Assembly: GCA_964387845.1 (NCBI GenBank) | Contig: CAYLXA010000002.1 | Location: forward strand, 1-64,000 | Length of the DNA stretch: 64,000 nt | Direction: 5' to 3' | From: an uncultured bacterium | GTDB taxonomy: Bacteria; Omnitrophota; Omnitrophia; Omnitrophales; Abzuiibacteriaceae | In this document: positions 6,980 through 60,415 of the stretch, piece after piece | Layout of the letters: every line of letters starts with the position of its first letter | Numbering within the stretch: position 1 is the first letter of the stretch | Program-made: the position numbers and the translations under genes | Notes under the pieces: generated by a model | Told to the model about the DNA's origin: nothing | The model's input: only the letters and a program-made list of their open reading frames with translations | The model's database searches: none

Positions 6980-8386
<1,407 letters not shown>

Positions 8387-14760: not shown

Positions 14761-14775
14761 CAAAAAGAAAAACAT

Positions 14776-42993: not shown

Positions 42994-43968
42994 GTGGCTT
43001 GTATGAAAAAAATTTTAATCTGCGGCGGAACTGGTTTTATCGGCAGGAATTTGGTTGAGTATTTTGTCAAAAAACCAGATTTTGAAGTTTACGCAACTTG
43101 TTACAAGCGTCGTTCTCCCTTAATTCCAAAGGCTAAATTTAAGCGTATTGATTTAACAAATGTTGTGCAAGTTCAAGAAATTGTGAAGGGGATGGATGTT
43201 GTGGTTCAAGCCGCTGCCACAACCTCCGGCGTAAAGGATACGATTGAGGCGCCTTATGTGCACGTTACAGATAACGCCGTAATGAACTCCTTGATTTTTC
43301 GAGCGTGTTTCGAGCAAAAGGTGAAACACGTGATCTTTTTAAGCTGTACCGTGATGTATCCGAATCAGGAGGCGCCAGTTTCGGAAGAAGATATGAATTA
43401 TCAAATTACGGATAATTATTTTGGTGTCGGTTGGACAAAAGTTTACCTCGAGAAAATGAGCCAATTTTATTCGCGAATCGGAAGTGCTAAATATACCGCG
43501 ATTCGGCATTCCAATATTTACGGCCCTTATGATAAGTATGATCTTGAAAAATCACACGTTTTTGGCGCAACGGTTGCGAAAGTTGAAACTGCCAAGGACG
43601 GCAAAGTTGTGGTCTGGGGCACGGGCGCCCAAGAGCGCGATCTTTTATATGTGGATGACCTGTCCCGGTTTATTGATTTGGCAATTGAAAAGCAAACTGA
43701 AAAGTTTGAGCTGGTTAATGTTGGTTACGGAAAAAGCATTTCAATTGCTAATCTGGTCCAGTTGATTATTGACCGCTCCAAAAAGAATTTAAAGATTGAG
43801 TATGATCATTTAAAGCCTTCGGTTAACTTCAAGTTGGTTCTGAATATCGACCGCGCAAAGCGCATTTTTGGCTGGGAGCCGCAGGTGCCGCTTGAAGAAG
43901 GAATTGAAAGGAGTCTTGCGTGGTATCGAAAACATATTCAACCAATGTCTGCCGAAAAGATTAAATGA
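42994..43968 (+). CDS. NAD-dependent nucleotide-sugar epimerase/dehydratase (SDR)
   Basis: ILICGGTGFIGRNL. YxxxK in YLEKMSQ. Confidence 0.75.
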   Translation: MACMKKILICGGTGFIGRNLVEYFVKKPDFEVYATCYKRRSPLIPKAKFKRIDLTNVVQVQEIVKGMDVVVQAAATTSGVKDTIEAPYVHVTDNAVMNSLIFRACFEQKVKHVIFLSCTVMYPNQEAPVSEEDMNYQITDNYFGVGWTKVYLEKMSQFYSRIGSAKYTAIRHSNIYGPYDKYDLEKSHVFGATVAKVETAKDGKVVVWGTGAQERDLLYVDDLSRFIDLAIEKQTEKFELVNVGYGKSISIANLVQLIIDRSKKNLKIEYDHLKPSVNFKLVLNIDRAKRIFGWEPQVPLEEGIERSLAWYRKHIQPMSAEKIK

Positions 43969-46019
43969 AAAGCAAATTAATTTGCGCTGCCGTATTAGTG
44001 GCGCTGATTGTGATTTCATTTTACACCTACCGCTCCGGTGTCATTTCCGTGCCTCGCTCCGATCACTATGGGTTTATGGCGGAGAGGGAATACGCAGTTT
44101 CGGATACCGAGTTTTTGTTGAAGCAGTTGGTCTATAACCGGACCCGCGTCATCGCAAAGGGTGATTCTTTTTTGTTCAGGCCCGGAATGACCGGCACGCT
44201 CGCGCTTTTGGATATTTTTTTTCGGCATAATTTGTATGCGCTTGGCGCTTTCAGTATCCTCGCGCATGCTTTGACGGCTTTTTCATTGTTCTTATTGCTG
44301 AGTTTGTTTTTAAGGCGCTCTTTTGCGTTTATCCTATCCGTTGTATTTGCCACGCATCTGGCAGGTTTTGAAATGGTTTTTTGGCGCCATATCAGTCCTT
44401 ACATGTTTTGCCTGGTTTTTGTAGGATTGGCATTGTACGCGCTTGGCCGCTGGCTTCAGCCGCCCGAAAATCGAAATTGGCTTTTATTATTTTCATTCTG
44501 CCTTTTTTTATCTTCACTATTTCACGAAGTTGTTTTGCCGGCGATGGTTATCTTCTGTCTTTTATTTTTAGTTCTGCATTTTCAAAATCAATCAACGAAT
44601 CCATCTTATTTTAAATCATTGTCAATCGCGTGCCTGGTCCCGCTGGCTGCTAATTTGCTGCTCAACGTCGCTGGCCGGATCGCTTTTAGCAGCCAGGCCA
44701 ACCTGTTATTGAGTGATGCGGCGCAACCGGCAAGCGTTGCTTACGCCTCAAAATTTTTAAGCCACGCGGTTTACGTCGGGGGCCTGATTATCACTGCCTT
44801 TTTGGCGCCGAGCATCATTCGTTTCTCATTTATTAATTTGGATTTTCGGGCGGAGTGGGACTTTCTCAAAATTCCAGCGCCTGTTTTTTACACCGCCGGT
44901 TTTATTTTTCTTACATTGATCGCAGGGGCGTTAATTTATCTATATATTTTCAGAAAAAAGCTCGGTCAGCGACAGCTTTTTCCGATTTTTGCATTCGCGG
45001 GAATATTTTTGATTGTCACTTTTTTGGGACTAACGGTCGGGAGGGCCATTCCGCGCTCAATCGGTTATTTGAAAAACTCCACCTATTATTTCTATCTAAC
45101 CAATTACGCCCTTACAATCATCGTTGCTATGGGCTTGAGAAAAATCAGCAGCTTACCGTATAAAAATTTAAAAATCGGATTAGTGTTTTTCCTGCTCTGT
45201 GTTGCCGGTTATCAGATTAAAAGCGGTATTGCGGGAATCGAAAAGGCAATCAATGCTCGAGGTGATTACGATAAACAAATCGCTTCCAAAACACTCCGGG
45301 TTTGGTCAGAATTAAGCAAGCATCCGGAATATTGCTATGGTGGGACCGGGGCCGAAAGAGTTTCAAGCTTTGTGCCCAATGTTCTGCTGTACCGAAGGTC
45401 ATGCAATGCTTTCCCGGACAAAATCCCGCTCTATTTGCTCGAAAACGAAAAACGCGAACTTTGGTTTATGCAGTTGATTCCTGAGCAGATTGATCAGCAG
45501 GCCTATCGTTATGGGCAGATCAATAATGAGGGGCAAGCCGAGTTTTCCGCTCAATCAACCGATAACCAGCTCAGTTTTAGCGGTTTTTCTCTTAGCAATG
45601 CCGTCCATCATCCTATTTATTACGGCGCCCGGCTTCATGGGGGATTTGTCGGAGGTTTGGTATTTAACTATCACGACCCCGCCAATTTTTCAATCTTAGT
45701 GGCAAATGAACGTTACACTTATGTGCAATTTAACGAGAATGGAAACCCCTCGGAACCGTCGTATGTGGCGCAGCAGATTTTAGATCCGATCGCTTTTGAT
45801 TTGTCGATTCGGAGAATCGGCGGCAGGTATGTTGTATTCTATAACCGGACTTTGCTTGCAGTGATCAATGATGCTGTTTCCGAGGGACGAGTGGGGCTTT
45901 ATCGGAAGCCCCGTCATTCAGCAGGCGAGTATTTTACCGACGTGGTCTTGATTGATGCTTCAGAGGCCAAACAATCGCAGATGGGTGCTTTTGAACCTGT
46001 TTTTCAATTTCAATTTTAG
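43965..46019 (+). CDS. Polytopic membrane protein with a ~280-aa C-terminal soluble domain (glycan-assembly protein, family unassigned)
   Basis: About 11 TM helices followed by a soluble domain. Lies in the glycan locus. Confidence 0.4.
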   Translation: MKSKLICAAVLVALIVISFYTYRSGVISVPRSDHYGFMAEREYAVSDTEFLLKQLVYNRTRVIAKGDSFLFRPGMTGTLALLDIFFRHNLYALGAFSILAHALTAFSLFLLLSLFLRRSFAFILSVVFATHLAGFEMVFWRHISPYMFCLVFVGLALYALGRWLQPPENRNWLLLFSFCLFLSSLFHEVVLPAMVIFCLLFLVLHFQNQSTNPSYFKSLSIACLVPLAANLLLNVAGRIAFSSQANLLLSDAAQPASVAYASKFLSHAVYVGGLIITAFLAPSIIRFSFINLDFRAEWDFLKIPAPVFYTAGFIFLTLIAGALIYLYIFRKKLGQRQLFPIFAFAGIFLIVTFLGLTVGRAIPRSIGYLKNSTYYFYLTNYALTIIVAMGLRKISSLPYKNLKIGLVFFLLCVAGYQIKSGIAGIEKAINARGDYDKQIASKTLRVWSELSKHPEYCYGGTGAERVSSFVPNVLLYRRSCNAFPDKIPLYLLENEKRELWFMQLIPEQIDQQAYRYGQINNEGQAEFSAQSTDNQLSFSGFSLSNAVHHPIYYGARLHGGFVGGLVFNYHDPANFSILVANERYTYVQFNENGNPSEPSYVAQQILDPIAFDLSIRRIGGRYVVFYNRTLLAVINDAVSEGRVGLYRKPRHSAGEYFTDVVLIDASEAKQSQMGAFEPVFQFQF

Positions 46020-48031: not shown

Positions 48032-49042
48032 ATGATTCAAATCGGTGTAATCGGATGCGGGCAATGGGGGCCTAACCATATCCGCAATTTTACCAACTTA
48101 GAAGATAGCCGCGTGGCTGCCTGTTCCGATTTAGACTCAGTACGTTTAACCGCCATGTCAAAGCTTGTGAAGGGTATTGAAACCACGCGGAATTACCGAG
48201 ACATTCTCCACAACCCGCGCATTGACGCAGTGGTGATCTCCACTCCGGCTGCGCTTCATTACAAGATTGCGAAAGAAAGCCTATTAGCGGGCAAGGACGT
48301 GCTCTGCGAAAAACCGCTTTGCACCAAAGTTAGCGATGCGATCAAGCTGACGGAGCTTGCAAAAAAGCTCAAAAGAGTGTTGATGGTCGGGCATGTTTTT
48401 GTATTCAATCCGGGTATCCGAAAGTTAAAAGAACTGATTCAGAAGAAAAAATGCGGGCGCGTATATTATTTACATTCTGAACGGACCAACCTTGGGCCGT
48501 TCCGGCGCGATGTGAATGCAGTGTGGGATTTGGCCTGCCACGACGTTTATATTTTTAATTACTTACTGAATAGTTTTCCGATCGAGGTTACCGCGCGCGG
48601 AGGAAAGTATCTTCAGAGCAAAATCGAAGACGTTGCCTTTATATCGATGACTTATCCGAGCGGTGTTTTGGTGAACATCCATGTCAGCTGGCTGGATCCC
48701 AAAAAAATCAGGCAAATTACCGTCGTTGGAAATAAATCCATGATTACCTGGGATGATTTGGACAATGTCGGCCCGATTAAAATTTACGATAGCCAGGTTG
48801 TGCACAAGTATTACTACGAAACTTTCGGTGAATTTGCGCTGTTGGCGAGGGAAGGTGATATCACGATTCCTAAAATCGCGCTGCAGGAACCTTTAAAGAT
48901 CCAAGATTCCCATTTTTTGGAATGCGTTCAGAAAAGAAAGCAGCCCGCGGCGGATGGTGTTGCCGGTATCCAAACGGTAAAGGTGCTTACGGCCATTCAG
49001 AAATCTCTGGCAAAGCGGGGCAATCCGGTACGCGTCGGATGA
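48032..49042 (+). CDS. Gfo/Idh/MocA-family NAD(P)-dependent sugar oxidoreductase
   Basis: IGVIGCGQWG. EKPL motif (DVLCEKPL). Confidence 0.8.
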   Translation: MIQIGVIGCGQWGPNHIRNFTNLEDSRVAACSDLDSVRLTAMSKLVKGIETTRNYRDILHNPRIDAVVISTPAALHYKIAKESLLAGKDVLCEKPLCTKVSDAIKLTELAKKLKRVLMVGHVFVFNPGIRKLKELIQKKKCGRVYYLHSERTNLGPFRRDVNAVWDLACHDVYIFNYLLNSFPIEVTARGGKYLQSKIEDVAFISMTYPSGVLVNIHVSWLDPKKIRQITVVGNKSMITWDDLDNVGPIKIYDSQVVHKYYYETFGEFALLAREGDITIPKIALQEPLKIQDSHFLECVQKRKQPAADGVAGIQTVKVLTAIQKSLAKRGNPVRVG

Positions 49043-49776
49043 AAGCGCTCATCATTGCGTGTGCCTATAATGAAGGTGTCAAATTTGAAGCCACGTGCGA
49101 TCGAATCGCGGCTTTTCTGAAAAAACGTGATAAAAGCCGTGTCGTAATTGACGTTCTTGTTATCGATGATGCTTCGAGCGATTCCGCGCCTAAGCAATCG
49201 GCATCCAAGCACGGATTCCCGTATTTACGAAATGAAAAGAGAAGCGGTATCGGTTTCTCAATTCGGCGCGGCTATGAATTTGGTATTCAAAAACAGTACG
49301 ATATCTTGATCACAATCGCGGGAAACAACAAGGACAATCCCGATGAATTGGATCAATTGATTGAACCCATTGTCAGCGGGAAAGCGGATTTTGTCCAAGG
49401 ATCCCGGTATTTGGCGGGCGGAAATTATGGTAACATGCCGTTTTATCGGCTTATTACGACACGCTATGTCCATCCTTGGCTATTTTCTTTGGTGGCGGGC
49501 AGGCGGATTACGGATACAACTAACGGTTTCCGGGCCGTGAAAAACTCAGTTTTGAAAGATGTTCGGATTGATTTGCGGCAAGACTGGTTGGATCATTACG
49601 AACTGGAACCCTATTTATTCTGCCGTGCAATACGGTTGGGTTTTCGTATTGCAGAGGTTCCGGTGACCAAGATTTATCCTGACAGAAAGTTAGGTTATTC
49701 TAAAATGGCTCCCATCACGGGTTGGTGGAGTATTTTGAGGCCTCTGGTGTATCTATTTTTTAATTTAAAAAAATAA
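49039..49776 (+). CDS. GT2 glycosyltransferase (Dpm1-like)
   Basis: ALIIACAYNE. VIDDASSD. ATGA overlap start at 49039. The ORF-track 5' extension was rejected. Confidence 0.7.
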   Translation: MKALIIACAYNEGVKFEATCDRIAAFLKKRDKSRVVIDVLVIDDASSDSAPKQSASKHGFPYLRNEKRSGIGFSIRRGYEFGIQKQYDILITIAGNNKDNPDELDQLIEPIVSGKADFVQGSRYLAGGNYGNMPFYRLITTRYVHPWLFSLVAGRRITDTTNGFRAVKNSVLKDVRIDLRQDWLDHYELEPYLFCRAIRLGFRIAEVPVTKIYPDRKLGYSKMAPITGWWSILRPLVYLFFNLKK

Positions 49777-52700
49777 ATGATTTCCGAAACTACTTCGCCT
49801 TTACCTAATATTAAAACATCGATGAGACCTCGCACGCTGAGCTTGCTCGTCCTATCATTTTTCTTTGTGTCCGGCGCCTGCGGCTTAATGTATCAAGTCG
49901 TGTGGCTTCGGGTGATGGGCCTCGTTTTTGGAAACACGACCTATGCCACCAGTGCGGTACTGTCGGGTTACATGGCGGGATTGGGGCTGGGAGCGCTGTG
50001 CTTCGGCAAGTGGATTGACAAGCCGTCAGCAGGAGATCCGGTTAAGCTTTATGGAATTATGGAGGGCGGAGTCGGAGCTTACGCGCTTTTGACGCCGTTT
50101 ATTTGGTATTTCATCGATTGGATCAACATCGTTTTTTACCGCGCCTTTAATCCCGAATTTCTTCAATTCAGTCTATTCAAATTTGCAGTGTCATTTGTGT
50201 TTTTGTTCATTCCGACATTTTTGATGGGCGGCACGCTGCCGGTGTTAAGCAAATTTTATATAGAGCATCGCGATCAGATTGCGCACAAGGTGGGGATTTT
50301 ATATGCGCTCAATACGGCAGGCGCCGTGCTAGGCGTGATTTTCAGCGGTTTTTTTTGTTTGTATTATTTTGGCGTATGGCAAACCACGGTTTTGACAGCC
50401 GTTCTTAACCTTTTGATTTTTGCCGCATGCTGGTTCTGGATTAAGGGGAATGCTGCGGGCGCTAGCGCTTTGCCGCCCGAAATCGCCGTTCAAGAACTGC
50501 CGGCTCCATCAAAATCGCAGCCAAATGCGTACTATACGACGCTGCTTGTTTTATTTGGGATTTCCGGCGGCGTTTCCATGATGTATGAAATCGGATGGAC
50601 GCGCATACTCGCCATTGTCGTCGGAAGCTCTATCTACGCATTTTCGGTAATGCTGTCGACGTTTCTATTGGGCATCGCCCTCGGCAGCTTTTTGTTCAGC
50701 TGGCTCTCCAAGCGGATCAAAATCGACCTATCCATTTTTGCCACCTTGCAAGCCGCCACTGCATTATTTGCTTTTTTGGGCATGAATCAATTTGAAGAAA
50801 TGCCATACCGCTTTTTAAAGCTCTATCACTGGTCTAAGCACACACCGTTTTTAATCGAGCTTGGAAGATTCGCGCTTTGTACAATCGTTATGCTGGGCCC
50901 GACCATTTGCATCGGCGCCATGTTTGCTTGCTTTATTCATTTGTATCATCAGCAAGAGCGTTTGGGGGGCGATATTGGCACGGCTTATTTTGCGAATACT
51001 GTGGGGACTATTTTTGGTTCGGCGCTGACCGGCTTTTTGATTATCCCAATCCTGGGAATTTACAAAACACTCATGGCCGCCGCCGGATTAAATGCCGCGA
51101 TCGGCGCGATTGCGTTTATGATGAGTTTGCCTAACCGGCAACTCAGGCGGACAATTGCTTTTTCCGTCGTGTTTGTTTTTACTTGGGTTGGTGCTAGCCT
51201 AGCGCGCCCGTGGAATAAATCAGTAATCACAAGCGGGGCGGTGGTTCGTCCGAACATGCATAACGCCAATTCGCAAGAAGAGTTTATCCGGTCTATGGAA
51301 AACCGGCTTAATCTGTTCTATAAGGAAGGGACGAGCGCAACGGTCAGCGTTAACCGAGTGCGCGATGTTATTTCACTCGCAGTGAATGGAAAAACAGATG
51401 CCTCTAACGGAACCGACGCGTTCAATCAATTTTTGCTTGGCCACTTGCCGATGCTGTTAAATCCGGATGCGCAAAAGGTACTTACCATCGGCCTGGGAAG
51501 CGGTTCGACGGTTGCCGCAGTCGCGTCTTACGCGGTCAAACAGATTGATTGCGTCGAACTGGAAGCTGCCGTGGTTGAGGGCGCCAGATTTTTTTCGGAA
51601 CTGAATCGAAATGTGCTAAACGACCCCAGGCTTCGCATGATTGTGAATGACGGCCGCAATTACTTAAAAATCAATCCTACGCTGTATGATGTCATCATTT
51701 CCGAACCTTCAAATCCATGGATGGCCGGTGTCGCTAATTTGTTTTCGCGCGAGCATTACGAAACAATGAAAGCGCGTCTCGCGCCGCAGGGGATCGTGTG
51801 CCAATGGCTTCACGCTTACAGCATGTCCGATCAGGATATGCGTATGATTATTCGAACATTCACGCTGGTATTTCCAAATACAAGTCTATGGACATCGAAT
51901 TATCCTGACCTGCTTCTGCTCGGGTCGAATGAACCGATTGAAATAGATTATCTCGAATTAAAAAAATCCTTTAACCGTCCGGAGGTTTTACAGGATTTTG
52001 AACCCTACGGAATTAAAACAGCGGATGGTTTTCTAGGCGCTTTTTGGCTGGATGACGAAGCGTTGCGTAGTTTTTCCGAAGGAGCCCGAATCAACAGCGA
52101 TAATTACCCCTACCTAGAATTTTCGGCACCGCGCCATTTGTATGACGATACGGTGAGCAGTAATTATCATTTAATCAACGCTTTTGCGTCGAAGCAGTAT
52201 CCAAAAATTAAAAACCTGAATCCTCCGATTGATCAAAATATTGAGTTTCATGTCAATATTGCCAGAAGCAACTTTTACCGGAAAATATACGGGAGGGTCC
52301 AAAGCGAACTTGACTTCATCAAAGAGCTGGATCCTAAAAACCCGGACTTGATCGAAATTTTGGGAATGGTTCAGTATGAGATGGGGAACTTTACAGACGC
52401 AGAGCGGCTGTTATCTGAATCTTTGATTCAAAATCCTGATTCACCCGAAACCCACTTCTACTTTGGATTGATCCAGCAAAGGAAGAAGCGCCACGAAAAT
52501 GCGATATTTTCTTTTGGTGAAGCGATACAGCTCGATTCGCGTGCCGCTAAGTATTACATAGCGCTGGGTGATTCATTGATGGAAATGAATGCGTTTGTCT
52601 CTGCGGTTGATGCTTTTGATCAGGCTTTGATTTATTCGCCTGCCAAGTTTGACTTATTGATTCGGAAGGCTTCCGCTCTCAGCCGTATTGTGCCGATCAA

Positions 52701-53001
52701 CGAGCAAATCAGATTTACGGAAGAGTTGCTTGAAATGTACCCGAAACATGTGGCGCTTTATGAAATGTTGGGAAATCTTTATCAAAATAACCATCAGCGC
52801 GATGACGCGGAAAAAATTTATTTAAGGATGATTCAAGAGTTTCCCCTGGAGCCCAACAGTTATTTGCAGCTCGGCATTTTATACGGCAAGACGGGCTCAA
52901 TGATGAAAGCAAAAGAGCAGCTCAAGAAGGCTGTACGCTATGATCCGGAACTGTTAAAAAACCCTGAAATTCAAAAAGTACTTCAGTATAAAGGTGCCTA
53001 A
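49777..53001 (+). CDS. Fused membrane domain / spermidine-synthase-like domain / C-terminal TPR repeats (1074 aa)
   Basis: About 12-14 TM helices. SpeE-like GLGSGSTV and DVIISEPSNPW. C-terminal TPR-like repeats. Confidence 0.7.
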   Translation: MISETTSPLPNIKTSMRPRTLSLLVLSFFFVSGACGLMYQVVWLRVMGLVFGNTTYATSAVLSGYMAGLGLGALCFGKWIDKPSAGDPVKLYGIMEGGVGAYALLTPFIWYFIDWINIVFYRAFNPEFLQFSLFKFAVSFVFLFIPTFLMGGTLPVLSKFYIEHRDQIAHKVGILYALNTAGAVLGVIFSGFFCLYYFGVWQTTVLTAVLNLLIFAACWFWIKGNAAGASALPPEIAVQELPAPSKSQPNAYYTTLLVLFGISGGVSMMYEIGWTRILAIVVGSSIYAFSVMLSTFLLGIALGSFLFSWLSKRIKIDLSIFATLQAATALFAFLGMNQFEEMPYRFLKLYHWSKHTPFLIELGRFALCTIVMLGPTICIGAMFACFIHLYHQQERLGGDIGTAYFANTVGTIFGSALTGFLIIPILGIYKTLMAAAGLNAAIGAIAFMMSLPNRQLRRTIAFSVVFVFTWVGASLARPWNKSVITSGAVVRPNMHNANSQEEFIRSMENRLNLFYKEGTSATVSVNRVRDVISLAVNGKTDASNGTDAFNQFLLGHLPMLLNPDAQKVLTIGLGSGSTVAAVASYAVKQIDCVELEAAVVEGARFFSELNRNVLNDPRLRMIVNDGRNYLKINPTLYDVIISEPSNPWMAGVANLFSREHYETMKARLAPQGIVCQWLHAYSMSDQDMRMIIRTFTLVFPNTSLWTSNYPDLLLLGSNEPIEIDYLELKKSFNRPEVLQDFEPYGIKTADGFLGAFWLDDEALRSFSEGARINSDNYPYLEFSAPRHLYDDTVSSNYHLINAFASKQYPKIKNLNPPIDQNIEFHVNIARSNFYRKIYGRVQSELDFIKELDPKNPDLIEILGMVQYEMGNFTDAERLLSESLIQNPDSPETHFYFGLIQQRKKRHENAIFSFGEAIQLDSRAAKYYIALGDSLMEMNAFVSAVDAFDQALIYSPAKFDLLIRKASALSRIVPINEQIRFTEELLEMYPKHVALYEMLGNLYQNNHQRDDAEKIYLRMIQEFPLEPNSYLQLGILYGKTGSMMKAKEQLKKAVRYDPELLKNPEIQKVLQYKGA

Positions 53002-53954
53002 TGGAAAAGTTTAACTATGCGCTGAGTGTTATCGTCCCATTTTTCAATGAAGAACAATCATTGCCGGGAATTATAAAAGGTGCGCAAGCAGTTTTGAGCC
53101 ATTTTTCACAGCAAAGCGAAATCATTTTTGTAGATGACGGCAGTGCGGATGCGGGTATTCAGATTGTCAAAAATGAGGCCAAATCAGATAAGCGTATTAA
53201 ATTGGTAGCGTTCAAAAAAAATTTCGGGCAGACCGCTGCCTGGGCTGCCGGTATTGATCATGCCAAGGGTGACGTTATTGCATTTTTGGATGCGGATTTA
53301 CAAAATGACCCGGCAGACATTCTGATGCTTGCAAAAAAACTTGGCGAAGGTTTTGATGTTATCAGTGGCTGGCGGAAGGACAGAAAGGATAGTCTCTTAA
53401 CGAGGCGCATTCCGTCACAGATCGCAAACTGGCTGATTTCAACCGTTACGGGTGTGCATTTGCATGACTACGGATGCTCTTTGAAGCTCTATCGCGCCGA
53501 AATTTTACGCGGCGTAAAGCTTTATGGAGAAATGCACCGCTTTCTGCCTGCTTACGCGGCTTGGGAAGGTGCGCGGATCACTGAAGTAATCGTCAATCAC
53601 CAAGAGCGGCGGCACGGTGTAAGTAAATACGGATTAGGAAGAATTTCAAAAGTAATCCTGGATCTCACGACCGTTTCTTTTCTGGGCGGTTTTGCGACAA
53701 AGCCTATTTATTTCTTCGGGCGGCTCGGTTTTGTGCTATTCCTTCTTGGTTTGGCGACCTTAGGCCTAGTGGCTTATCGTGTTTTGATTTTACAAAATAA
53801 AGAAGCAACGCCTGCGGTCTTTATGATGGTCGTATTTTTCATCTCTTCAATTCAGCTGATTTTAATGGGGTTGCTTGCTGAAATGGTGATGCGGGTTTAT
53901 CACCAAGGCCAGGAGAGGCCGGTTTATCGGATTTCAGAAAAAATCAATTTTTAA
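53001..53954 (+). CDS. GT2 polyprenyl-phosphate glycosyltransferase (ArnC/GtrB-like) with C-terminal TM helices
   Basis: LSVIVPFFNE. VDDGSAD. LDADLQNDP. Two C-terminal TMs. Confidence 0.8.
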   Translation: MEKFNYALSVIVPFFNEEQSLPGIIKGAQAVLSHFSQQSEIIFVDDGSADAGIQIVKNEAKSDKRIKLVAFKKNFGQTAAWAAGIDHAKGDVIAFLDADLQNDPADILMLAKKLGEGFDVISGWRKDRKDSLLTRRIPSQIANWLISTVTGVHLHDYGCSLKLYRAEILRGVKLYGEMHRFLPAYAAWEGARITEVIVNHQERRHGVSKYGLGRISKVILDLTTVSFLGGFATKPIYFFGRLGFVLFLLGLATLGLVAYRVLILQNKEATPAVFMMVVFFISSIQLILMGLLAEMVMRVYHQGQERPVYRISEKINF

Positions 53955-55875: not shown

Positions 55876-57812
55876 GTTTTCCGAAACGAAGCTGTTGTAA
55901 CGGAATCGTAAAACACCATCAAGATCTCATCAATCGGGATATCGGCCGTCAACTTAGGGTTCAAAATTTCAAATCGACCGTCCGTAACATTAACGAAACC
56001 AAAAGGCGCGATTTCACGGCTTGGCGCGGCAACCTGAACATAAACTTCGTAAATTCCGTCCGGAAATCCATCCCCTTGAATCAAATACCCCTCCTGCGTT
56101 AAACCGCTTTTTGCCGCTGCCTTTGGAAGCGATTCAGAGAAAAATTCATAACCAGTTTCATCTGCTATTCGGGGTTTTGCTGATAGCCGATAGGTATTAA
56201 CCTGCTCAATCAAAAGAGGTGCCTGTGTTTTGGGAATAGATTCCGTGATATAGAGCGTCGGATCACGATTAATAATAATCACATCGCCTTTTTTAATGAA
56301 TTGGTAAGAGCCGGGCCCTAAAACCAGTGGCTCGCTGGGGTTGTTGGCACGTTGCGGTAAATACGTCGTGATGGGCAGGTGATAGACTGGTTTTCCGGTA
56401 TAAAATTCGATCGCGTTACCGTAGAAGTGGTAGATGTATGTGACTTTATCGTTGATGTCAAAAACATAATCTTTGGGATGAATGGTATAGTAAGGCCCGA
56501 CCCAAAAAATACTAGAATTTTGAGACAAGCTTTTTGCGGCCTTGCTGATCTTGCCTGAAAAATCGTTCGAATAAACGGGATCGGCGAATTTTATGCACTC
56601 TGAAAATCCTTTCTGAAGAGGCGAGAAGGCAAACACAAAGCACAGCATGCCCGCAAAAGCATTCTTGATTTGATCCGATTTGATTCTGAGAGCTATAAAT
56701 TGAATAATTGCCAATGCGCCTTTCAGCGTGAAATAAAACACGGGCGGAAAGAGCGGAAACAAATAACGAGCTTCTCTGACGGCAATTACATAAGTTTGAA
56801 ATAGAAAAAAGGCAAAAAACCAAATGATGAAAAATAGTGACAATGGCCGCCTGTCCTTCGCTGACAGAAAAATCCCACCAACAAAAAGGAGATGGAGCGG
56901 AAAAGGAATCGATTTTAATAAAAATACATAGTTCCAGTTCGGGTTTTCCCAGCCTGTATTTTTTTGATACTGCGCAATCAGGTCTTGGACGAATTTCAGA
57001 ATTGACGAGTGCCATGGTGCTAAATCCAAAAGCGTATAGAGCAGGCCGGCCAGTAAGAAATAAACCGTAACCGGCACGATGAATAAAGCGATTAATTTCA
57101 CAAGCAAACCTACTTGTCGAGGCTTGCCCGTGCTCTTGATTTGAAAAACACGGTTAATGATTTCGTAGATAAGAAAAACGCCGAATAGAAACGGAATTAA
57201 GTTGTAGCGGATCCCGATTGCAAACATAGTCAAAATTCCAGCACTCCACAAAAAACCGGCATTTCCGGAGTTTTGACTCTTCCAATATAAATAAAATGCA
57301 GCCGAAGTGAATAAGGTGGCCGCAATGTCTTCTTTGGCAAACGGAGCATAGTGAATTAAGAGCGTATTGCCGGCCAGAAATAGAGTTCCGAGCAGCGCTT
57401 CGGTTTTACCAAATTCAAACCGCAAGAACTTGAAAAACACGAAAAGCAAAAGCAAGAACAAAGCAACGCAGGTCAGATGGACGGTTATCAGCGAGAAGTC
57501 GGGGCTTTGTGCCCATTGCTCTAAAATAAAGATCGGAGAAAGAAGGATCGGAAAAATAAAAGGTCTTTTCCAATAATAAGTCAGCGATTCATCCAATGTC
57601 GCAATTTTTCGGGCGTTGACCAGGGTTTCATAGGCGTCAAAAAAGTCAATTCTAAGGTGAAGCGCAACCCAAAATAGGTATAAGCCGAGAGCGACCAATA
57701 AGGAAACGATAATGAAGTTGATTTTGCTTCGAATGCGGTCTGTAAACGGGAGTGTTGCTTCAGGCAAGTTCAATCGGTGTACCTTTGCTGTTTTCGAAGC
57801 GCTAATCGACAA
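55872..57812 (-). CDS. GT-C-like polytopic membrane protein with a C-terminal periplasmic domain (ArnT/PMT_2-like)
   Basis: About 13 TM helices plus a ~200-aa C-terminal soluble domain. Confidence 0.45.
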   Translation of the reverse strand: MSISASKTAKVHRLNLPEATLPFTDRIRSKINFIIVSLLVALGLYLFWVALHLRIDFFDAYETLVNARKIATLDESLTYYWKRPFIFPILLSPIFILEQWAQSPDFSLITVHLTCVALFLLLLFVFFKFLRFEFGKTEALLGTLFLAGNTLLIHYAPFAKEDIAATLFTSAAFYLYWKSQNSGNAGFLWSAGILTMFAIGIRYNLIPFLFGVFLIYEIINRVFQIKSTGKPRQVGLLVKLIALFIVPVTVYFLLAGLLYTLLDLAPWHSSILKFVQDLIAQYQKNTGWENPNWNYVFLLKSIPFPLHLLFVGGIFLSAKDRRPLSLFFIIWFFAFFLFQTYVIAVREARYLFPLFPPVFYFTLKGALAIIQFIALRIKSDQIKNAFAGMLCFVFAFSPLQKGFSECIKFADPVYSNDFSGKISKAAKSLSQNSSIFWVGPYYTIHPKDYVFDINDKVTYIYHFYGNAIEFYTGKPVYHLPITTYLPQRANNPSEPLVLGPGSYQFIKKGDVIIINRDPTLYITESIPKTQAPLLIEQVNTYRLSAKPRIADETGYEFFSESLPKAAAKSGLTQEGYLIQGDGFPDGIYEVYVQVAAPSREIAPFGFVNVTDGRFEILNPKLTADIPIDEILMVFYDSVTTASFRKT

Positions 57813-58956
57813 CGACGACTTTTGCCGGAGGGAACCCGTTAAATGCGGCTACGGCACTGGCAGCCGAATAAGCTCCGATATTCTTGACGTAAATCACATT
57901 ACCGACGTCAAGCTCCGGAAGTTCCTCGCTGGCTGAAATCGTATCAAATGAATCGCAAGTCGGGCCGGCAAGCGTGCTTAAAAACCTTTGACCGCGGCGG
58001 AGAGTTTTGAATTCGTACTTGCAGTGATCAAAAACAATGCCCGAGAAATCCTGATAAATCCCATCATTCAAATAATAGTAATTTTTGTTATTCCGGAATG
58101 TGCGCCCCACGACTTCAGTCACTAAAATTCCTGCGGGGCCCACCAAAAAACGGCCCGGCTCAGCCATGAATTTCACGTCTTTATCAAACAAACGCTTCAT
58201 TTCGGTTTTGATGGCGCGCGCCATATTTTCGAATGTTGCGTGCTGGTCGTTGTCAAAGTGGCGGATCGGAAAACCGCCGCCGATATCAACCGTATTAAGA
58301 TAGATTCCTTCACGTTTTAATTCCTTGAAAATCGCCGACGTGACTTCGAGGGCTTGGACGTAGTTGCCGGTATTGGTGCACTGAGAGCCGACGTGAAAAC
58401 AGATGCCGGCTGGTGTTAAGCCGAGCTGTTTCGCTTTTTTCAGCAGGAAAGTGGCCTGATCGGGATCGGCGCCGAATTTGAGCGATAATTCGACTATGCT
58501 GCCCAAATTCGCGACCTTGATTCTTAGTAATACTTTGGCTCGCGGGCAATATTTGGCAATTTTGTATAGCTCGGGCTCATTGTCGAAAACGGTAAATTTT
58601 ACGCGGCAGGCACGCGCAAGCTTTAAATCCTCGGCAGATTTAATCGGATTGGCGAAGATGACTTGATCGGGCGAAGCGCCGAGGTCAATCACAGTCTTCA
58701 TTTCGGCTGCGCTCGCAACGTCAAATTTGGTGTTCAGCCGCAAAAATGTTTTGATGATTTCGGGGTTTGGATTGGCTTTGATCGCGTAATAAATCTGGAC
58801 CTGCGGCAGGTGTTTCTTGAAAAGCTGGTATTGCCTAATCAAAATACTGCGCTTGATCAGCATAAAAGGTGTCGAATGCTTCTTCAGAGATTTTCGGATC
58901 AGCGTTTCGACACCGTTCCCGGAAATTTGAGCTGTCTTGGTTAGGGTAGCGGGCAT
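57802..58956 (-). CDS. Ornithine decarboxylase (PLP fold-type III, eukaryotic-like ODC family)
   Basis: YAIKANPN (PLP Lys). HVGSQCT. DIGGGFP. GPTCDSFD. FNGF. All are ODC hallmarks. Confidence 0.75.
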   Translation of the reverse strand: MPATLTKTAQISGNGVETLIRKSLKKHSTPFMLIKRSILIRQYQLFKKHLPQVQIYYAIKANPNPEIIKTFLRLNTKFDVASAAEMKTVIDLGASPDQVIFANPIKSAEDLKLARACRVKFTVFDNEPELYKIAKYCPRAKVLLRIKVANLGSIVELSLKFGADPDQATFLLKKAKQLGLTPAGICFHVGSQCTNTGNYVQALEVTSAIFKELKREGIYLNTVDIGGGFPIRHFDNDQHATFENMARAIKTEMKRLFDKDVKFMAEPGRFLVGPAGILVTEVVGRTFRNNKNYYYLNDGIYQDFSGIVFDHCKYEFKTLRRGQRFLSTLAGPTCDSFDTISASEELPELDVGNVIYVKNIGAYSAASAVAAFNGFPPAKVVVVD

Positions 58957-58963
58957 CTAGGGA

Positions 58964-60415
58964 TCAACGGACCAAAAAGGTGTTGAACTGCCATGTCTCA
59001 TGCTCGGTCGGAATGTGGCCGTTTGTGTTTCGGAAAAGGCGAAATAAATTTTTCACAGGTGTCCAATCAACCGGCTGAGAAATAAAAGGCCCCAAGTAAG
59101 GCCTTGCGACTTTCATGATTTCATCATGGGGCAGGTCATCCGGAACGCAAACGCCTTCAGACGGATTCGCCATCATCCACATCACCGCCGCAAGCACCGA
59201 GCAAGCGACTTGAAGGGTGGTTGCATTTTGATGGGGTGCCAAGCGGCGAGCCTCTTCGATATCCAGCAAGCTTCCGGTCCACCAGGATTTGAAATCATGG
59301 CCCATGAGCAATACACCGAGTTCGTCGCGCCCGCTCACGATGTCGTCATTCAGGATGCGCTGCTTGCTTTGCAGGTCGAACTGGCGCATTTCAAGCTCAA
59401 TCAATGAATTCATCGCTGCATCGCAAGGACAGTAGGCATAGTGGACGGTAGGGCGGTAAACCGGCTTATCATCCTCCCAAACGGTTAAATAATCGGAAAT
59501 GGTGAATGCTTCACCGTGACGCACAACCATTCCCACAATCTCACCGCTCGGAACCCAGGAGCGAACCCACGTTTTAATACCGGGGCGGGCAAGGCAAATT
59601 TGATTACCGGGGCCTGATAAATGATAGTGCGCATCGGGCGGGAGGTTCATTTCGTGGGTTCCCCAGCCCATTTCGGCGGGTGCAATACCTTCTTCGCGAA
59701 AGCCTTCGACGCTCCAGGTGTTTACAAATTCATTCACTTCTTTTGGTTTGCGCGTAATCTGCGAATCGCGTTCACTGATATGAATGGTTTTCACGCCGCA
59801 AAGCTGCGCTAGCTTGGCGTATTGTTTATGGCGAAGGGCTTTTTGAATGTCCTTCAGCCGTGTTCGGGATTCCTTGGCTTTTGTTTTAAGGATTTTTTCA
59901 GCAATATCCTGAAGCGCTATTTTCGTGAAATGGGAAACGAGTCCGGGATTGGCGCCGTGATCCACAACCGCGCTCGGGCCCTTGTTGTTTTCCCAGCTAT
60001 TGATCAGCTTTCGGATCGCCATTTGGCGGACATAAAGGGTAAGCTCGGTCGGGTGCTGTTCTGTGCCTCCAAAATAAGGGTCCCAAAGCTCAACGGAAGT
60101 GTTGATGTAATTGACGCCGTTTTGATGGCACCAATTGAGAATTTCGACCGTGTCGATGTTGTAGGCCAAATCAACGATCATATCGCCCTGGCCGACAAAT
60201 TGTTTCAGGATCTTGGCGTAATTATCTTTTGTAATTTCTTTTTGTGTGTACTTAACGCCTTTGGCGAGAACGTCTTTTACGTGGCGCCGATTGTCGATCA
60301 TGTCCATGATCGTGATTTTTTCGGTCGGCATTTCGATGTGTTTCAAAAACAAAGGCAGTGTGCATTGCGAAACAGAGCCGCAGCCAATCACTAATAATTT
60401 TCCGTTAAATTTCAT
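58964..60415 (-). CDS. hss: Homospermidine synthase (saccharopine dehydrogenase-like family)
   Basis: LLVIGCGSVSQCTLPLF. GANPGLVSHF. HISERDSQ. FVNTWSVEGF. GWGTHE. Matches the recalled bacterial Hss pattern. Confidence 0.65.
   Translation of the reverse strand: MKFNGKLLVIGCGSVSQCTLPLFLKHIEMPTEKITIMDMIDNRRHVKDVLAKGVKYTQKEITKDNYAKILKQFVGQGDMIVDLAYNIDTVEILNWCHQNGVNYINTSVELWDPYFGGTEQHPTELTLYVRQMAIRKLINSWENNKGPSAVVDHGANPGLVSHFTKIALQDIAEKILKTKAKESRTRLKDIQKALRHKQYAKLAQLCGVKTIHISERDSQITRKPKEVNEFVNTWSVEGFREEGIAPAEMGWGTHEMNLPPDAHYHLSGPGNQICLARPGIKTWVRSWVPSGEIVGMVVRHGEAFTISDYLTVWEDDKPVYRPTVHYAYCPCDAAMNSLIELEMRQFDLQSKQRILNDDIVSGRDELGVLLMGHDFKSWWTGSLLDIEEARRLAPHQNATTLQVACSVLAAVMWMMANPSEGVCVPDDLPHDEIMKVARPYLGPFISQPVDWTPVKNLFRLFRNTNGHIPTEHETWQFNTFLVR

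What the first reader, a model, noticed from the sequence alone, without database searches (positions are those of the whole stretch)
49777..53001. 1074-aa membrane / spermidine-synthase-like / TPR fusion protein inside the glycan locus
A ~450-aa multi-TM domain is followed by a SpeE-fold aminopropyltransferase-like domain (GLGSGSTV, DVIISEPSNPW) and a C-terminal TPR array. It is flanked by GT2 genes. This architecture is unlikely to make free polyamine. It may transfer aminopropyl or related groups onto a membrane or glycan substrate. A separate ODC plus homospermidine synthase pair lies 5 kb downstream.
Basis: partly seen in the sequence, partly recalled or inferred. Interest (0 to 1): 0.5.

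Follow-up and report, generated by a model that had tools for sequence, protein, structure and literature searches.

The report
MFS-fused, periplasm-facing SpeE-like transferase
This is a real, very widespread bacterial membrane protein auto-named "fused MFS/spermidine synthase". It has lost the residues needed to make spermidine and probably works as a transporter-coupled methyltransferase facing the periplasm, a kind of enzyme not yet described in bacteria.

Summary
ORF 49777-53001 (+, 1074 aa) encodes a 13-helix membrane domain, a SpeE-fold domain (PF01564, E 7.6e-23) and seven TPRs, and is translationally coupled to two polyprenyl-phosphate-type GT2 genes. It is not a chimera: more than 100 full-length homologues, an independent assembly, at least 584 species genomes and 9,966 50%-identity clusters carry it. 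It belongs to NCBIfam NF037959, "fused MFS/spermidine synthase".

New here:
- The positive-inside rule (K+R 18 vs 4.6; 175 of 175 sequences) places the SpeE-like and TPR domains in the periplasm.
- Adenosyl-binding residues are invariant, but the dcSAM-specifying Asp is Ser/Thr/Gly/Ala in all 175 sequences and the diamine-anchoring Asp is Asn.
- The glycan context holds only in close relatives.

Best reading (about 0.45): a SAM-dependent, probably N-methylating, transferase on the outer face of the inner membrane. Its fused MFS would supply SAM or the acceptor, and the TPRs would dock a macromolecule. Separate eukaryotic precedents are fungal NHMT and plant GoSAMT.

The parts
49777..53001 (+). 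Whole gene, 1074 aa: MFS + TM13 + SpeE-fold domain + TPR array
   Evidence: ORF. Member of NF037959 at 119.5 bits against a cutoff of 40. AF2 model pLDDT 94.1, pTM 0.92.
49828..50439 (+). MFS N-half, TM1-6 (aa 18-221). Conserved residues: Y39, E/Q40, W43, R45 (TM1); E96 (TM3); N179, T180 (TM5). Conserved periplasmic turn FGNTT(F/Y)A (aa 51-57).
50440..50523 (+). Disordered cytoplasmic linker between the MFS halves (aa 222-249)
   Evidence: pLDDT below 50. Top-residue frequency 0.17.
50524..51123 (+). MFS C-half, TM7-12 (aa 250-449), an internal duplicate of the N-half. Conserved residues: Y270, E271, W274, R276 (TM7); N407, T408 (TM11). Conserved periplasmic turn GSSxYAF (aa 283-289).
   Evidence: BLASTP of N-half against C-half gives E 5e-19. 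Other evidence.
51142..51204 (+). TM13 (aa 456-476), the extra helix that carries the chain from cytoplasm to periplasm
   Evidence: Helix 456-475 in both models. Hydrophobic in all 175 homologues, mean Kyte-Doolittle 1.9 over 19 aa. Positive-inside bias.
51307..51414 (+). SpeE-type N-terminal 4-stranded beta domain (aa 511-546). Conserved: K539, D541, D547. The positions of T. maritima Y76/H77 are N/T550 and Q551.
51415..51927 (+). SpeE-fold Rossmann (class I methyltransferase-like) domain (aa 547-717)
   Evidence: PF01564, E 7.6e-23. Foldseek TM-score 0.62-0.76 to SpeE structures. Family profile against PDB SpeE chains gives E about 1e-25.
51490..51510 (+). Cofactor loop G572-L-G574-S575-G-S-T578. 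Ser replaces the dcSAM-specifying Asp of the GGGDG motif.
   Evidence: Alignment to 1inl and 3o4f. Position 575 is S99/T1 of 100 and S65/T6/G3/A1 of 75, never acidic.
51556..51558 (+). E594, the ribose-binding Glu (equivalent to T. maritima E121 and NHMT E340)
   Evidence: Conserved in 175 of 175 sequences. E340A inactivates NHMT (PMC10349129).
51649..51651 (+). D625, the adenine-binding Asp of the D-G motif
   Evidence: Conserved in 175 of 175 sequences.
51688..51723 (+). Family signature D638-V-I-I-S-E643-P-S-N646-P-W648-M. E643 sits at the SpeE catalytic-base position and N646 replaces the diamine-anchoring Asp.
   Evidence: The motif is positionally equivalent to NHMT D388 plus its segment 389-394.
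51928..52221 (+). Conserved alpha/beta C-terminal extension (aa 718-815) with invariant D740, D775, E781 and the motif (T/S)D(N/D)xPxLEFSAP
   Evidence: Present also in the TPR-less homologues of about 800 aa.
52240..52986 (+). TPR array: 14 helices, about 7 repeats (aa 822-1070). Poorly conserved and optional in the family.
   Evidence: Top-residue frequency 0.25 with no position at 90% or more. Versions without TPR exist.
49036..49776 (+). Upstream operon partner: DPM1/AglJ-like GT2 (polyprenyl-phosphate hexose synthase type). Its stop codon abuts the target ATG.
53001..53954 (+). Downstream operon partner: ArnC/GtrB-like GT2 with C-terminal TM helices. Its start overlaps the target stop (TAATG).
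   Evidence: PRK10714 at 205.7 bits over the full length, below the cutoff. Also.

Best explanation
The protein is a three-module inner-membrane enzyme, not a spermidine synthase.

**Module 1: transporter.** A 12-TM MFS transporter domain, an internally duplicated 6+6 unit, has a conserved polar and charged cavity. A 13th helix follows it and takes the chain across the membrane.

**Module 2: enzyme.** A SpeE-derived Rossmann domain sits on the periplasmic face. It still binds an adenosyl cofactor. It has lost the Asp that selects decarboxylated SAM and the Asp that anchors a diamine. It keeps an acidic residue (E643) at the catalytic-base position, inside an aromatic and acidic pocket. It most likely uses SAM to alkylate an amine-type acceptor. 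Methylation is the most probable reaction, and 3-amino-3-carboxypropyl transfer is not excluded.

**Module 3: docking.** A variable, optional TPR array docks a macromolecular substrate or partner.

**Role of the MFS domain.** The periplasm has no known SAM pool, so the fused MFS domain is proposed to deliver SAM, or alternatively the acceptor, to the tethered catalytic domain.

**Local context.** In this lineage the gene is co-translated with two polyprenyl-phosphate-sugar synthases. It lies among GT-C glycosyltransferases, so the local target may be a periplasmic glycoconjugate or exported protein.

**Shown:** the architecture, the folds, the residue pattern and the distribution.
**Predicted:** the topology.
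**Inferred:** the cofactor, the reaction, the acceptor and the transport role.
For: **Fold and architecture**
- AF2 model with pLDDT 94.1.
- The two halves are internal duplicates, E 5e-19.
- MFS_1 passes Pfam's own threshold in a homologue.

**Topology**
- 13 helices.
- K+R is 18.05 on the N-terminal-side loops against 4.63, in 100 of 100 sequences, and 16.9 against 4.5 in 75 of 75 phylum-diverse sequences.
- TM13 is hydrophobic in all sequences.
- MFS termini are cytoplasmic (established knowledge).

**Cofactor site**
- G572, E594 and D625 are conserved in 175 of 175 sequences; G574 is G in 167 and A in 8.
- Position 575 is never acidic.
- E643 is conserved 97-100%, N646 94-99% and W648 99-100%.

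**Literature**
- SPDS D103I abolishes aminopropyl transfer and yields methyltransferase activity. T. maritima D101I lowers kcat about 2000-fold. [quoted passage not shown]
- Fungal NHMT is a TM-anchored SpdS-like enzyme with Ile at the same position. It methylates secreted LPMOs, and both E340A and deletion of the TM domain inactivate it (PMC10349129). Its motif spacing matches ours.
- Plant Golgi SAM transporters are MFS proteins (bioRxiv 10.1101/2021.07.06.451061).

**The MFS is not a mere anchor**
- 53 positions are at least 90% conserved across phyla, including E40, E96, E271, R45, R276, N179/T180 and N407/T408.
- The periplasmic turns TM1-2 and TM7-8 are the best-conserved loops.

**The fusion is obligate**
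- Apparent short forms were truncated gene calls.

**Not needed for polyamine synthesis**
- ODC and HSS lie next door, and no SpeD was found in the 64 kb.
Against: - No experiment exists on any bacterial member, and no paper on the fusion was found.
- Topology is predicted, not measured.
- No periplasmic SAM-dependent enzyme or bacterial MFS SAM exporter is known (own knowledge).
- The domain is much closer in sequence to true SpeE (E about 1e-25) than to METTL13 (E 0.005) or NHMT (23-34 bits).
- The TM domains of NHMT and this protein show no significant similarity.
- No conserved gene neighbour points to a substrate.
- The TPR region is poorly conserved, so a single universal protein substrate is unlikely.
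Confidence: 0.45

Rival explanations
1. One reading: a dcSAM-dependent aminopropyltransferase that puts aminopropyl groups on a membrane or glycan acceptor instead of a free diamine.
For: - SpeE fold with the N-terminal beta domain.
- An acidic residue is kept at the base position.
- Operon coupling to two polyprenyl-P GT2 genes within a large glycan locus, here and in L005.
Against: - The acidic residue that salt-bridges the dcSAM amine and repels the SAM carboxylate is absent in 175 of 175 sequences. Its loss abolishes aminopropyl transfer in SPDS.
- The domain is predicted to be periplasmic.
- No SpeD lies in the window.
- The glycan context is absent from distant members; only 3 of 80 loci have it.
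Confidence: 0.1
2. The database annotation is right: a membrane-anchored but genuine spermidine/polyamine synthase.
For: - PF01564 hit.
- Sources name homologues 'spermidine synthase' or 'polyamine aminopropyltransferase'.
- Partial match to PRK03612 at 151.8 bits.
Against: - Scores are far below every SpeE equivalog cutoff: 85.5 against 249.6, 96.4 against 260 and 151.8 against 472.
- D101->S, D173->N and Y76->N/T.
- Predicted periplasmic location.
- The organism has ODC+HSS.
Confidence: 0.04
3. A transporter with a non-catalytic periplasmic cap. The MFS moves a cationic solute (for example a polyamine) or a lipid, and the SpeE-like domain is a ligand-binding pseudoenzyme that hands the cargo to a TPR-bound partner.
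For: - The closest MFS structures are amine/drug antiporters and lipid transporters: VMAT2, VAChT, NorA, FLVCR, Spns2 and LtaA.
- Membrane-embedded acidic residues are conserved.
- The aromatic and acidic pocket suits an ammonium ligand.
- No SAM pool is known in the periplasm.
Against: - Residues that bind the adenosine of SAM (the G-x-G loop, E594, D625) and the acidic residue at the base position are invariant across phyla. A mere polyamine-binding module would not need them.
- NHMT shows that such a domain can be catalytic on the extracytoplasmic side.
Confidence: 0.18
4. The topology prediction is wrong: the SpeE-like and TPR modules are cytoplasmic. The protein would then be an ordinary SAM-dependent methyltransferase tethered to a transporter, acting on a cytoplasmic or inner-leaflet substrate.
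For: SAM is available only in the cytoplasm as far as is known. TPR domains occur in both compartments.
Against: - This would need either an N-out MFS, contrary to the family rule and to an 18 vs 4.6 K+R bias in 175 of 175 sequences, or a non-spanning TM13, although it is a 20-residue hydrophobic helix in all members.
- The periplasmic MFS turns are the best-conserved loops.
Confidence: 0.1

Closest known systems
NCBIfam NF037959, 'fused MFS/spermidine synthase' (uncharacterised subfamily model)
   Same: The protein scores 119.5 bits against a cutoff of 40. Many homologues carry this name.
   Different: The name asserts spermidine synthase activity, which the residue pattern contradicts. The model covers only the MFS and SpeE parts (aa 266-709 matched) and not the TPR array. 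No function has been tested.
Fungal N-terminal histidine methyltransferase NHMT (A. nidulans AN4663, Q5B467; PMC10349129)
   Same: - Auto-annotated 'spermidine synthase'.
- Order of modules: polytopic TM domain ending in an odd-numbered helix, then a 4-stranded beta sheet, a SpdS-like Rossmann domain and a helical extension.
- Non-acidic residue in G-x-G-(D/E)-G (I322 there, S575 here).
- SAM-binding Glu (E340 there, E594 here).
- Acidic residue after beta-4 (D388 there, E643 here) with identical spacing.
- Acts on secreted substrates.

   Different: - NHMT has 7 TM helices and no significant similarity to this membrane domain (19.6 bits, E 0.57).
- Only the Rossmann core aligns (23-34 bits).
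- The signature hexapeptide is VFTGEA there and PSNPWM here.
- NHMT has no MFS duplication and no TPR, and is eukaryotic and ER-located.
Canonical spermidine synthase SpeE (T. maritima 1inl, E. coli 3o4f, human 2o05)
   Same: Same fold, including the N-terminal beta domain (Foldseek TM-score 0.62-0.76). The family profile matches SpeE chains at E about 1e-25. The adenosyl-binding Glu and Asp are conserved.
   Different: D101->S, D173->N, Y76->N/T and D170->E. The protein is fused to an MFS domain and TPRs and is predicted periplasmic. It scores below all SpeE equivalog cutoffs.
Plant putrescine N-methyltransferase (PMT), evolved from SPDS (PMC3725402)
   Same: A SpeE-derived enzyme in which loss of the loop Asp switches the cofactor from dcSAM to SAM and the reaction from aminopropyl to methyl transfer.
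   Different: PMT is soluble and cytosolic and keeps the diamine-anchoring Asp. Here that residue is Asn, so putrescine is an unlikely acceptor.
Plant Golgi SAM transporters GoSAMT1/2 (MFS; bioRxiv 10.1101/2021.07.06.451061)
   Same: MFS proteins proposed to supply SAM to an extracytoplasmic compartment for methylation.
   Different: They are separate polypeptides from the methyltransferases. No sequence relationship to this protein was tested, and SAM transport by this MFS domain is pure inference.
DHA1-type MFS antiporters (VMAT2 9kqa, SotB 6kki, NorA, VAChT) and FLVCR choline/ethanolamine transporters
   Different: Sequence identity is 10-14%. MFS_1 reaches only 12.6 bits for this protein. 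The canonical motif A is present only as a remnant, G-(R/K)-x-I-D-(R/K). An extra TM13 and a large periplasmic enzyme module are added.
Human METTL13 C-terminal SpdS-like domain (5wcj), the eEF1A N-terminal methyltransferase
   Same: A SpdS-like fold used for protein N-terminal methylation.
   Different: Only marginal profile similarity (E 0.0054, 18.8 bits). METTL13 is soluble and cytosolic.

Membership tests
NF037959 fused MFS/spermidine synthase | HMM score above the curated cutoff | tested here: met
   119.5 bits against a cutoff of 40.
NF037959 fused MFS/spermidine synthase | MFS-fold membrane domain N-terminal to a PF01564 domain in one polypeptide | tested here: met
Spermidine synthase / polyamine aminopropyltransferase (SpeE; TIGR00417, PRK00811, PRK03612) | Score above the equivalog cutoffs | tested here: not met
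   85.5 against 249.55, 96.4 against 260 and 151.8 against 472.
Spermidine synthase / polyamine aminopropyltransferase (SpeE) | Acidic residue in the G-G-G-(D/E)-G loop that binds the dcSAM amine and excludes SAM | tested here: not met
   S575 here. Across the family the position is S/T/G/A in 175 of 175 sequences.
Spermidine synthase / polyamine aminopropyltransferase (SpeE) | Catalytic Asp after beta-4 (T. maritima D170, human D173) | tested here: inconclusive
   Replaced by Glu (E643), which is 97-100% conserved. This keeps an acidic residue, but it is not the canonical Asp.
Spermidine synthase / polyamine aminopropyltransferase (SpeE) | Second Asp of the D-x-x-D-P motif, which anchors the distal amine of the diamine, and the Tyr of the Y-(Q/H)-E motif | tested here: not met
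   N646 (94-99% conserved) and N/T550. [quoted passage not shown]
Spermidine synthase / polyamine aminopropyltransferase (SpeE) | Access to dcSAM: cytoplasmic location and AdoMetDC present in the genome | tested here: inconclusive
   The domain is predicted periplasmic. No SpeD was found in the 64-kb window, but the rest of the genome was not examined.
Major facilitator superfamily | 12-TM fold made of two homologous 6-TM halves | tested here: met
Major facilitator superfamily | Pfam MFS_1 above the gathering score, and motif A in loop 2-3 | tested here: inconclusive
   12.6 bits against 33.4 for this protein, but 47.7 bits in homologue L047. Loop 2-3 carries G-(R/K)-x-I-D81-(R/K), with D81 90% conserved. 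This resembles motif A but is not identical to it.
Major facilitator superfamily | Transport activity | not testable with these tools
   Only the conservation of cavity residues is available.
Fungal NHMT family (7TM N-terminal His methyltransferase) | Homologous 7-TM domain | tested here: not met
   No significant similarity: 19.6 bits, E 0.57. The family HMM aligns only to the Rossmann core.
Fungal NHMT family (7TM N-terminal His methyltransferase) | Non-acidic residue in G-x-G-x-G together with the SAM-binding Glu | tested here: met
   S575 and E594 here, I322 and E340 in NHMT.
Fungal NHMT family (7TM N-terminal His methyltransferase) | Conserved signature segment 389-394 | tested here: not met
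   VFTGEA in NHMT against PSNPWM at the equivalent position here.
Fungal NHMT family (7TM N-terminal His methyltransferase) | Methylation of the N-terminal His of secreted proteins | not testable with these tools
   No substrate information is available.
TPR-repeat proteins | Tandem 34-residue helix-turn-helix repeats | tested here: met
   TPR_2 at E 8e-18 and TPR_1 at E 5e-15. 14 helices in the model. Consensus-TPR structures match at E 3e-35.

The most novel reading that the evidence does not exclude
The protein is a self-contained trans-membrane methylation machine. Its MFS domain exports SAM from the cytoplasm directly to a covalently tethered SpeE-derived methyltransferase on the periplasmic face, which modifies exported proteins, lipids or glycans recruited by the TPR array. 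That would be the first SAM-dependent enzyme system shown to act in the bacterial periplasm and the first bacterial MFS SAM exporter. It would be present in roughly 10,000 sequence clusters across more than 15 phyla, currently mis-annotated as spermidine synthase.
Probability: 0.28. Interest if true: 0.85.

Novelty: new variant of a known kind. Interest (0 to 1): 0.55.

Why it matters
- **Annotation.** Thousands of bacterial genomes carry a gene propagated as "spermidine synthase" or "polyamine aminopropyltransferase" that almost certainly does not make polyamines. This distorts metabolic reconstructions, especially for uncultured phyla such as Omnitrophota, NC10, Acidobacteriota and Nitrospinota.
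- **Biology, if the reading is right.** Bacteria would carry out SAM-dependent chemistry outside the cytoplasm, with the cofactor supplied by a fused transporter. That would open a new class of envelope modifications affecting proteins, lipids or glycans. It would also give a compact bacterial model for how eukaryotic lumenal methyltransferases (NHMT, pectin methyltransferases) obtain SAM.
- **Testability.** The question is directly testable because the family occurs in cultured Anaeromyxobacter.

Tried and rejected
1. **Assembly chimera: rejected.** Full-length homologues, synteny and a second assembly all support the gene.
2. **Degenerate or structural domain: rejected.** The pocket is invariant.
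3. **Conserved operon partner as a clue to the substrate: none found.**
   - Clustering 686 neighbour ORFs from 80 loci gave only generic families: NtrC-like regulators in 17 of 80, mostly not adjacent, and ABC ATPases in 10 of 80.
   - phmmer with the window's GT-C, STT3, GT2, AsnB and Gfo proteins hit only 3 of 80 loci.
   - A type IV pilin-like neighbour in 5 NC10 loci is too rare to build on.
4. **Fused compartment-marker domains in long or short variants: none found.** The variants differ only by more or fewer TPRs.
5. **Stand-alone signal-anchored versions of the catalytic domain, as independent proof of export: rejected.** The candidates from the 1.84-billion-protein search were artefacts. 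P0158 is cut by a 110-N scaffold gap with the MFS upstream in frame (E 6e-69). P0131 is cut by a contig end. Forms starting at 'M(I/V)YE' begin inside TM7 and are likewise truncated gene calls (judged by reading the sequences, not checked on their contigs).
6. **Membership of the NHMT family: rejected**.
7. **Literature on the bacterial fusion: nothing relevant** in five searches.
8. **afdb50 fold search for distribution and annotation:** the library was unavailable.
9. **Model coordinates are not exposed**, so domain-interface geometry could not be measured.
10. **Thr578 as a SAM-carboxylate ligand (as V106T in PMT): dropped.** It is not diagnostic, because T. maritima SpeE also has Thr there.

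Full report
**1. Observation**

The window contains an ATG-initiated ORF at 49777..53001 (+) of 1074 aa. Pfam finds PF01564 Spermine_synth at aa 553-712 (E 7.6e-23) and a battery of TPR families over aa ~845-1060. MFS_1 is only faint, at E 0.065.

The upstream gene (49036-49776) is a DPM1/AglJ-like GT2. The downstream gene (53001-53954) is an ArnC/GtrB-like GT2 that matches PRK10714 over its full length at 205.7 bits, below the cutoff. The junctions are TAA|ATG and an overlapping TAATG, so the three genes are translationally coupled.

The neighbouring polyamine pair is real. 57805-58956(-) is a Lys/Orn decarboxylase (5gjm, E 2e-82). 58967-60415(-) is a full-length homospermidine synthase (2ph5, E 3e-102).

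**2. Not a chimera, and not rare**

A word-indexed search returned 2,683 proteins at E <= 1e-10. The best 120 are almost all 1,030-1,110 aa with the same architecture and 35-72% identity. Those that carry a source name are called "fused MFS/spermidine synthase" or "spermidine synthase", mostly from Omnitrophota but also from Verrucomicrobiota, Methylomirabilis and Deltaproteobacteria.

The identical protein sits on a 275-kb NCBI contig and on an independently assembled 26-kb Logan contig with the same neighbours.

They come from Omnitrophota, Planctomycetota, NC10, Verrucomicrobiota, Lentisphaerota, Kiritimatiellales, Acidobacteriota (three paralogues in one MAG), Nitrospinota, Myxococcota (including the cultured Anaeromyxobacter terrae SG22), Bacteroidota, Ignavibacteriota, Chlorobiota, Elusimicrobia, Binatia and others.

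A profile of the catalytic module alone finds 9,966 50%-identity cluster representatives at E <= 1e-30. NCBIfam already has a model for the fusion, NF037959 "fused MFS/spermidine synthase", and the protein passes it at 119.5 bits against a cutoff of 40. The architecture is therefore catalogued, but I found no paper that characterises it.

**3. Anatomy**

AlphaFold2 on a 100-sequence alignment gives a very confident model (pLDDT 94.1, pTM 0.92). In order, it contains:
- six long helices (aa 18-220)
- a disordered linker (222-249)
- six more helices (250-449)
- a 13th hydrophobic helix (456-475)
- a four-stranded beta domain (511-543)
- a Rossmann domain (547-717)
- an alpha/beta extension (725-802)
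- 14 TPR helices (822-1055)

With the full model, Foldseek matches only SpeE structures (TM-score 0.62-0.76, about 280 aligned columns, so the N-terminal beta domain is included) and TPR proteins. No full-length relative has been solved.

**4. Topology**

MFS proteins have both termini in the cytoplasm (established knowledge), so a 13th spanning helix puts everything after it outside. I tested the orientation with the positive-inside rule.
- Over 100 homologues, loops on the N-terminal side carry 18.05 K+R on average against 4.63 on the other side. The inequality holds in 100 of 100 sequences.
- On 75 phylum-diverse sequences (27-50% identity) the values are 16.9 against 4.5, in 75 of 75.
- TM13 is hydrophobic in all of them, with a mean Kyte-Doolittle score of 1.9 over 19 residues.
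- Loop 2-3 carries a remnant of MFS motif A, G-(R/K)-x-I-D-(R/K).

The SpeE-like domain, its extension and the TPRs are therefore predicted to lie in the periplasm. This is a prediction, not a measurement. I put it at roughly 0.85.

**5. The catalytic pocket**

Aligned to T. maritima SpeE (1inl) and E. coli SpeE (3o4f), the cofactor-binding elements are kept:
- G572-x-G574
- E594, equivalent to the ribose-binding E121
- D625-G, equivalent to the adenine-binding position

The aminopropyltransferase-specific residues are changed:
- the Asp of G-G-G-D-G (D101) becomes S575
- the Tyr (Y76) becomes N/T550
- the catalytic Asp (D170) becomes E643
- the second Asp of D-x-x-D-P (D173) becomes N646

The pattern is family-wide, not a private feature of this gene. 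Counts below are for the 100-sequence set and the 75-sequence set.

| Position | 100-sequence set | 75-sequence set |
|---|---|---|
| 575 | S99, T1 | S65, T6, G3, A1 (never acidic) |
| E594, D625, G572 | 100% | 100% |
| E643 | 97% | 100% |
| N646 | 94% | 99% |
| W648 | 99% | 100% |

Further invariant aromatic and acidic residues (W677, Y681, W705, D547, D711, D740, D775, E781) surround the site. I read this as a pocket for an ammonium-type acceptor; that is an inference.

The loop Asp has been studied experimentally. In Datura SPDS the single D103I exchange abolishes aminopropyl transfer and creates methyltransferase activity. T. maritima D101I lowers kcat about 2000-fold. That Asp is thought to repel the SAM carboxylate. 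[quoted passage not shown]

I conclude that the domain still binds an adenosyl cofactor and is probably catalytic, that it is not tuned for dcSAM, and that it does not bind a putrescine-like diamine in the canonical way. The SpeE equivalog models agree: 85.5 against 249.6, 96.4 against 260 and 151.8 against 472 bits.

**6. A characterised analogue**

Fungal NHMT (A. nidulans AN4663) is auto-annotated as a spermidine synthase. It consists of a 7-TM domain, a four-stranded sheet, a SpdS-like Rossmann domain and a helical extension. It has Ile at the loop position. It is the SAM-dependent methyltransferase that methylates the N-terminal His of secreted LPMOs in the ER. E340A or deletion of the TM domain inactivates it, and the authors note that SAM availability in the ER may be limiting (PMC10349129).

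I rebuilt its sequence from Supplementary Note 3, repairing OCR errors. The numbering is validated because E340 falls in IVEID. The motifs compare as follows:

| Element | NHMT | This protein |
|---|---|---|
| Cofactor loop | VIGLGI322GTT | TIGLGS575GST |
| SAM-binding Glu | IVE340ID | CVE594LE |
| After beta-4 | YD383YIVHD388-VFTGEA | YD638VIISE643-PSNPWM |

The spacings are 18/49 residues in NHMT and 19/49 here. Only the Rossmann core aligns significantly (33.9 bits by BLASTP; 23 bits with the family HMM). The TM domains show no significant similarity.

The family profile is far closer to true SpeE (E about 1e-25) than to METTL13 (E 0.005). NHMT is therefore a mechanistic analogue and a distant catalytic-domain homologue, not the same family. 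The present family looks like an independent neofunctionalisation of SpeE.

**7. What the MFS does**

It is not a passive anchor. Across phyla, 53 of its 432 positions are at least 90% conserved. They include a pseudo-symmetric set on the cavity-lining helices:
- TM1: Y39, E/Q40, W43, R45
- TM7: Y270, E271, W274, R276
- TM5: N179, T180
- TM11: N407, T408
- TM3: E96

The two periplasmic hairpin turns, FGNTT(F/Y)A and GSSxYAF, are the best-conserved loops, with top-residue frequencies of 0.62 and 0.71 against 0.26-0.50 for the cytoplasmic loops.

The fusion appears obligate. Every apparent short form I checked was a truncated gene call. Bacterial periplasm has no known SAM pool (own knowledge), and plant Golgi SAM transporters are MFS proteins. 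The most economical model is that the MFS domain hands SAM, or else the acceptor, to the tethered catalytic domain. This step is inference only. The structural neighbours (amine/drug antiporters, choline/ethanolamine and lipid transporters) are compatible with a cationic or amphipathic cargo but do not identify it.

**8. Context**

The window is rich in envelope-glycosylation genes:
- sugar-nucleotide enzymes between 33420 and 43968
- three PMT_2-type or unassigned polytopic proteins
- an STT3/PglB-type oligosaccharyltransferase (17176-19800)
- several GT2s, a pyruvyl transferase and an AsnB-type amidotransferase
- a type IV pilus/T2SS-like gene set and a periplasmic S41 protease

A 70%-identity relative has the same arrangement (L005).

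More distant members sit among unrelated genes. Clustering 686 neighbour ORFs from 80 loci gave no conserved partner. Only 3 of 80 loci have a glycosylation-type neighbour by phmmer. The glycan link is thus a property of this lineage. Here the tight coupling to two polyprenyl-phosphate-sugar synthases suggests that the local target is part of a periplasmic glycosylation pathway. It cannot define the family's function.

The TPR array is the least conserved part (0.25, with no position at 90% or more) and is absent from versions of about 800 aa. That fits an adaptable docking module rather than a fixed substrate site.

**9. Verdict**

The specific proposal of aminopropyl transfer onto glycan or membrane is only partly supported. 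The cofactor loop argues for SAM rather than dcSAM, the domain is predicted to be outside the cytoplasm, and the glycan association is not general.

My best explanation, at 0.45, is a transporter-coupled, periplasm-facing, SAM-dependent transferase, most likely an N-methyltransferase. The rivals are:
- a transport protein with a non-catalytic periplasmic cap (0.18)
- dcSAM-dependent aminopropyl transfer (0.10)
- a cytoplasm-facing methyltransferase, if the topology prediction is wrong (0.10)
- a genuine spermidine synthase (0.04)

The family is catalogued but uncharacterised and, in my reading, misnamed. Relative to the nearest characterised systems (SpeE, PMT, NHMT) it is a new variant of a known kind. 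Interest is moderate to high (0.55). This gene is one ordinary member of a huge family, but the family poses a sharp, testable question about SAM-dependent chemistry in the bacterial periplasm.

Noticed in passing
window 17176-19800 (+), with GT2 at 16481-17188 (-): An 874-aa STT3/PglB-type oligosaccharyltransferase (PF02516, 83.7 bits) lies between type IV pilus/T2SS-like genes and the glycan cluster. This suggests periplasmic N-linked protein glycosylation in this (probably Omnitrophota) organism.
   Followed up: no
window 8393-16115 (+) and 20120-21139 (+): A type IV pilus/T2SS-like set: a PilB/T2SSE ATPase carrying an MshEN N-domain and a C-terminal PilZ domain (c-di-GMP-binding modules at both ends), T2SSF/PilC, a PilM+PilN fusion protein, a TPR protein and a T2SSK-like minor pseudopilin.
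   Followed up: no
window 43965-46019 (+): A 684-aa protein with no Pfam or NCBIfam hit sits immediately upstream of a PMT_2 GT-C gene. Its 725-aa counterpart in the syntenic locus L005 is also unannotated. It may be a divergent GT-C or polymerase.
   Followed up: partly
window 40244-42978 (+): A B12-binding radical SAM enzyme (best hit HpnJ-like, 168.6 bits, below the cutoff) and a DAO-family FAD oxidoreductase are embedded among sugar-nucleotide genes (GHMP kinase, nucleotidyltransferase, epimerases, DegT aminotransferase, a TPP-dependent E1 alpha/beta pair at 34356-36376). This suggests an unusual C-modified amino sugar.
   Followed up: no
window 57802-60415 (-): The ODC + homospermidine synthase pair is convergent with the glycan operon. 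It keeps the same position in the 70%-identity relative (L005 18824-21437). No SpeD/AdoMetDC or canonical SpeE is present in the 64 kb.
   Followed up: yes
L018 5362-5856 and four other NC10-type loci among L007-L086: A type IV pilin-like gene (N-terminal GFTLIELLIVVAIIGILAAIA) lies next to the fusion gene in 5 of 80 loci, within 300 bp in 3 of them. This is too rare to interpret, but pilins are classic N-methylated exported proteins.
   Followed up: partly
L088 1-1465 and 4949-7201: A distant homologue (38% identity in the MFS domain) is flanked by a PMT_2+TPR GT-C protein and a YfhO-type GT-C protein. This is a second, independent case of GT-C neighbours. The gene itself is split by a 110-N scaffold gap, which produced a misleading 494-aa 'short form' in the protein databases.
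   Followed up: partly
window 48922-49776 vs 49036-49776: The longest ORF for the upstream GT2 (284 aa) overlaps the end of the Gfo/Idh/MocA gene by about 120 nt. Gene calls in relatives (245 aa in L005 and L087) indicate that the real start is near 49036-49039.
   Followed up: partly
window 3590-8386 (+): ATP-synthase-like genes appear in the order alpha-like (no N-terminal beta-barrel hit), OSCP/delta-like, gamma-like, then beta-like. The gamma and delta matches are weak. This may be a divergent or N-ATPase-type operon.
   Followed up: no
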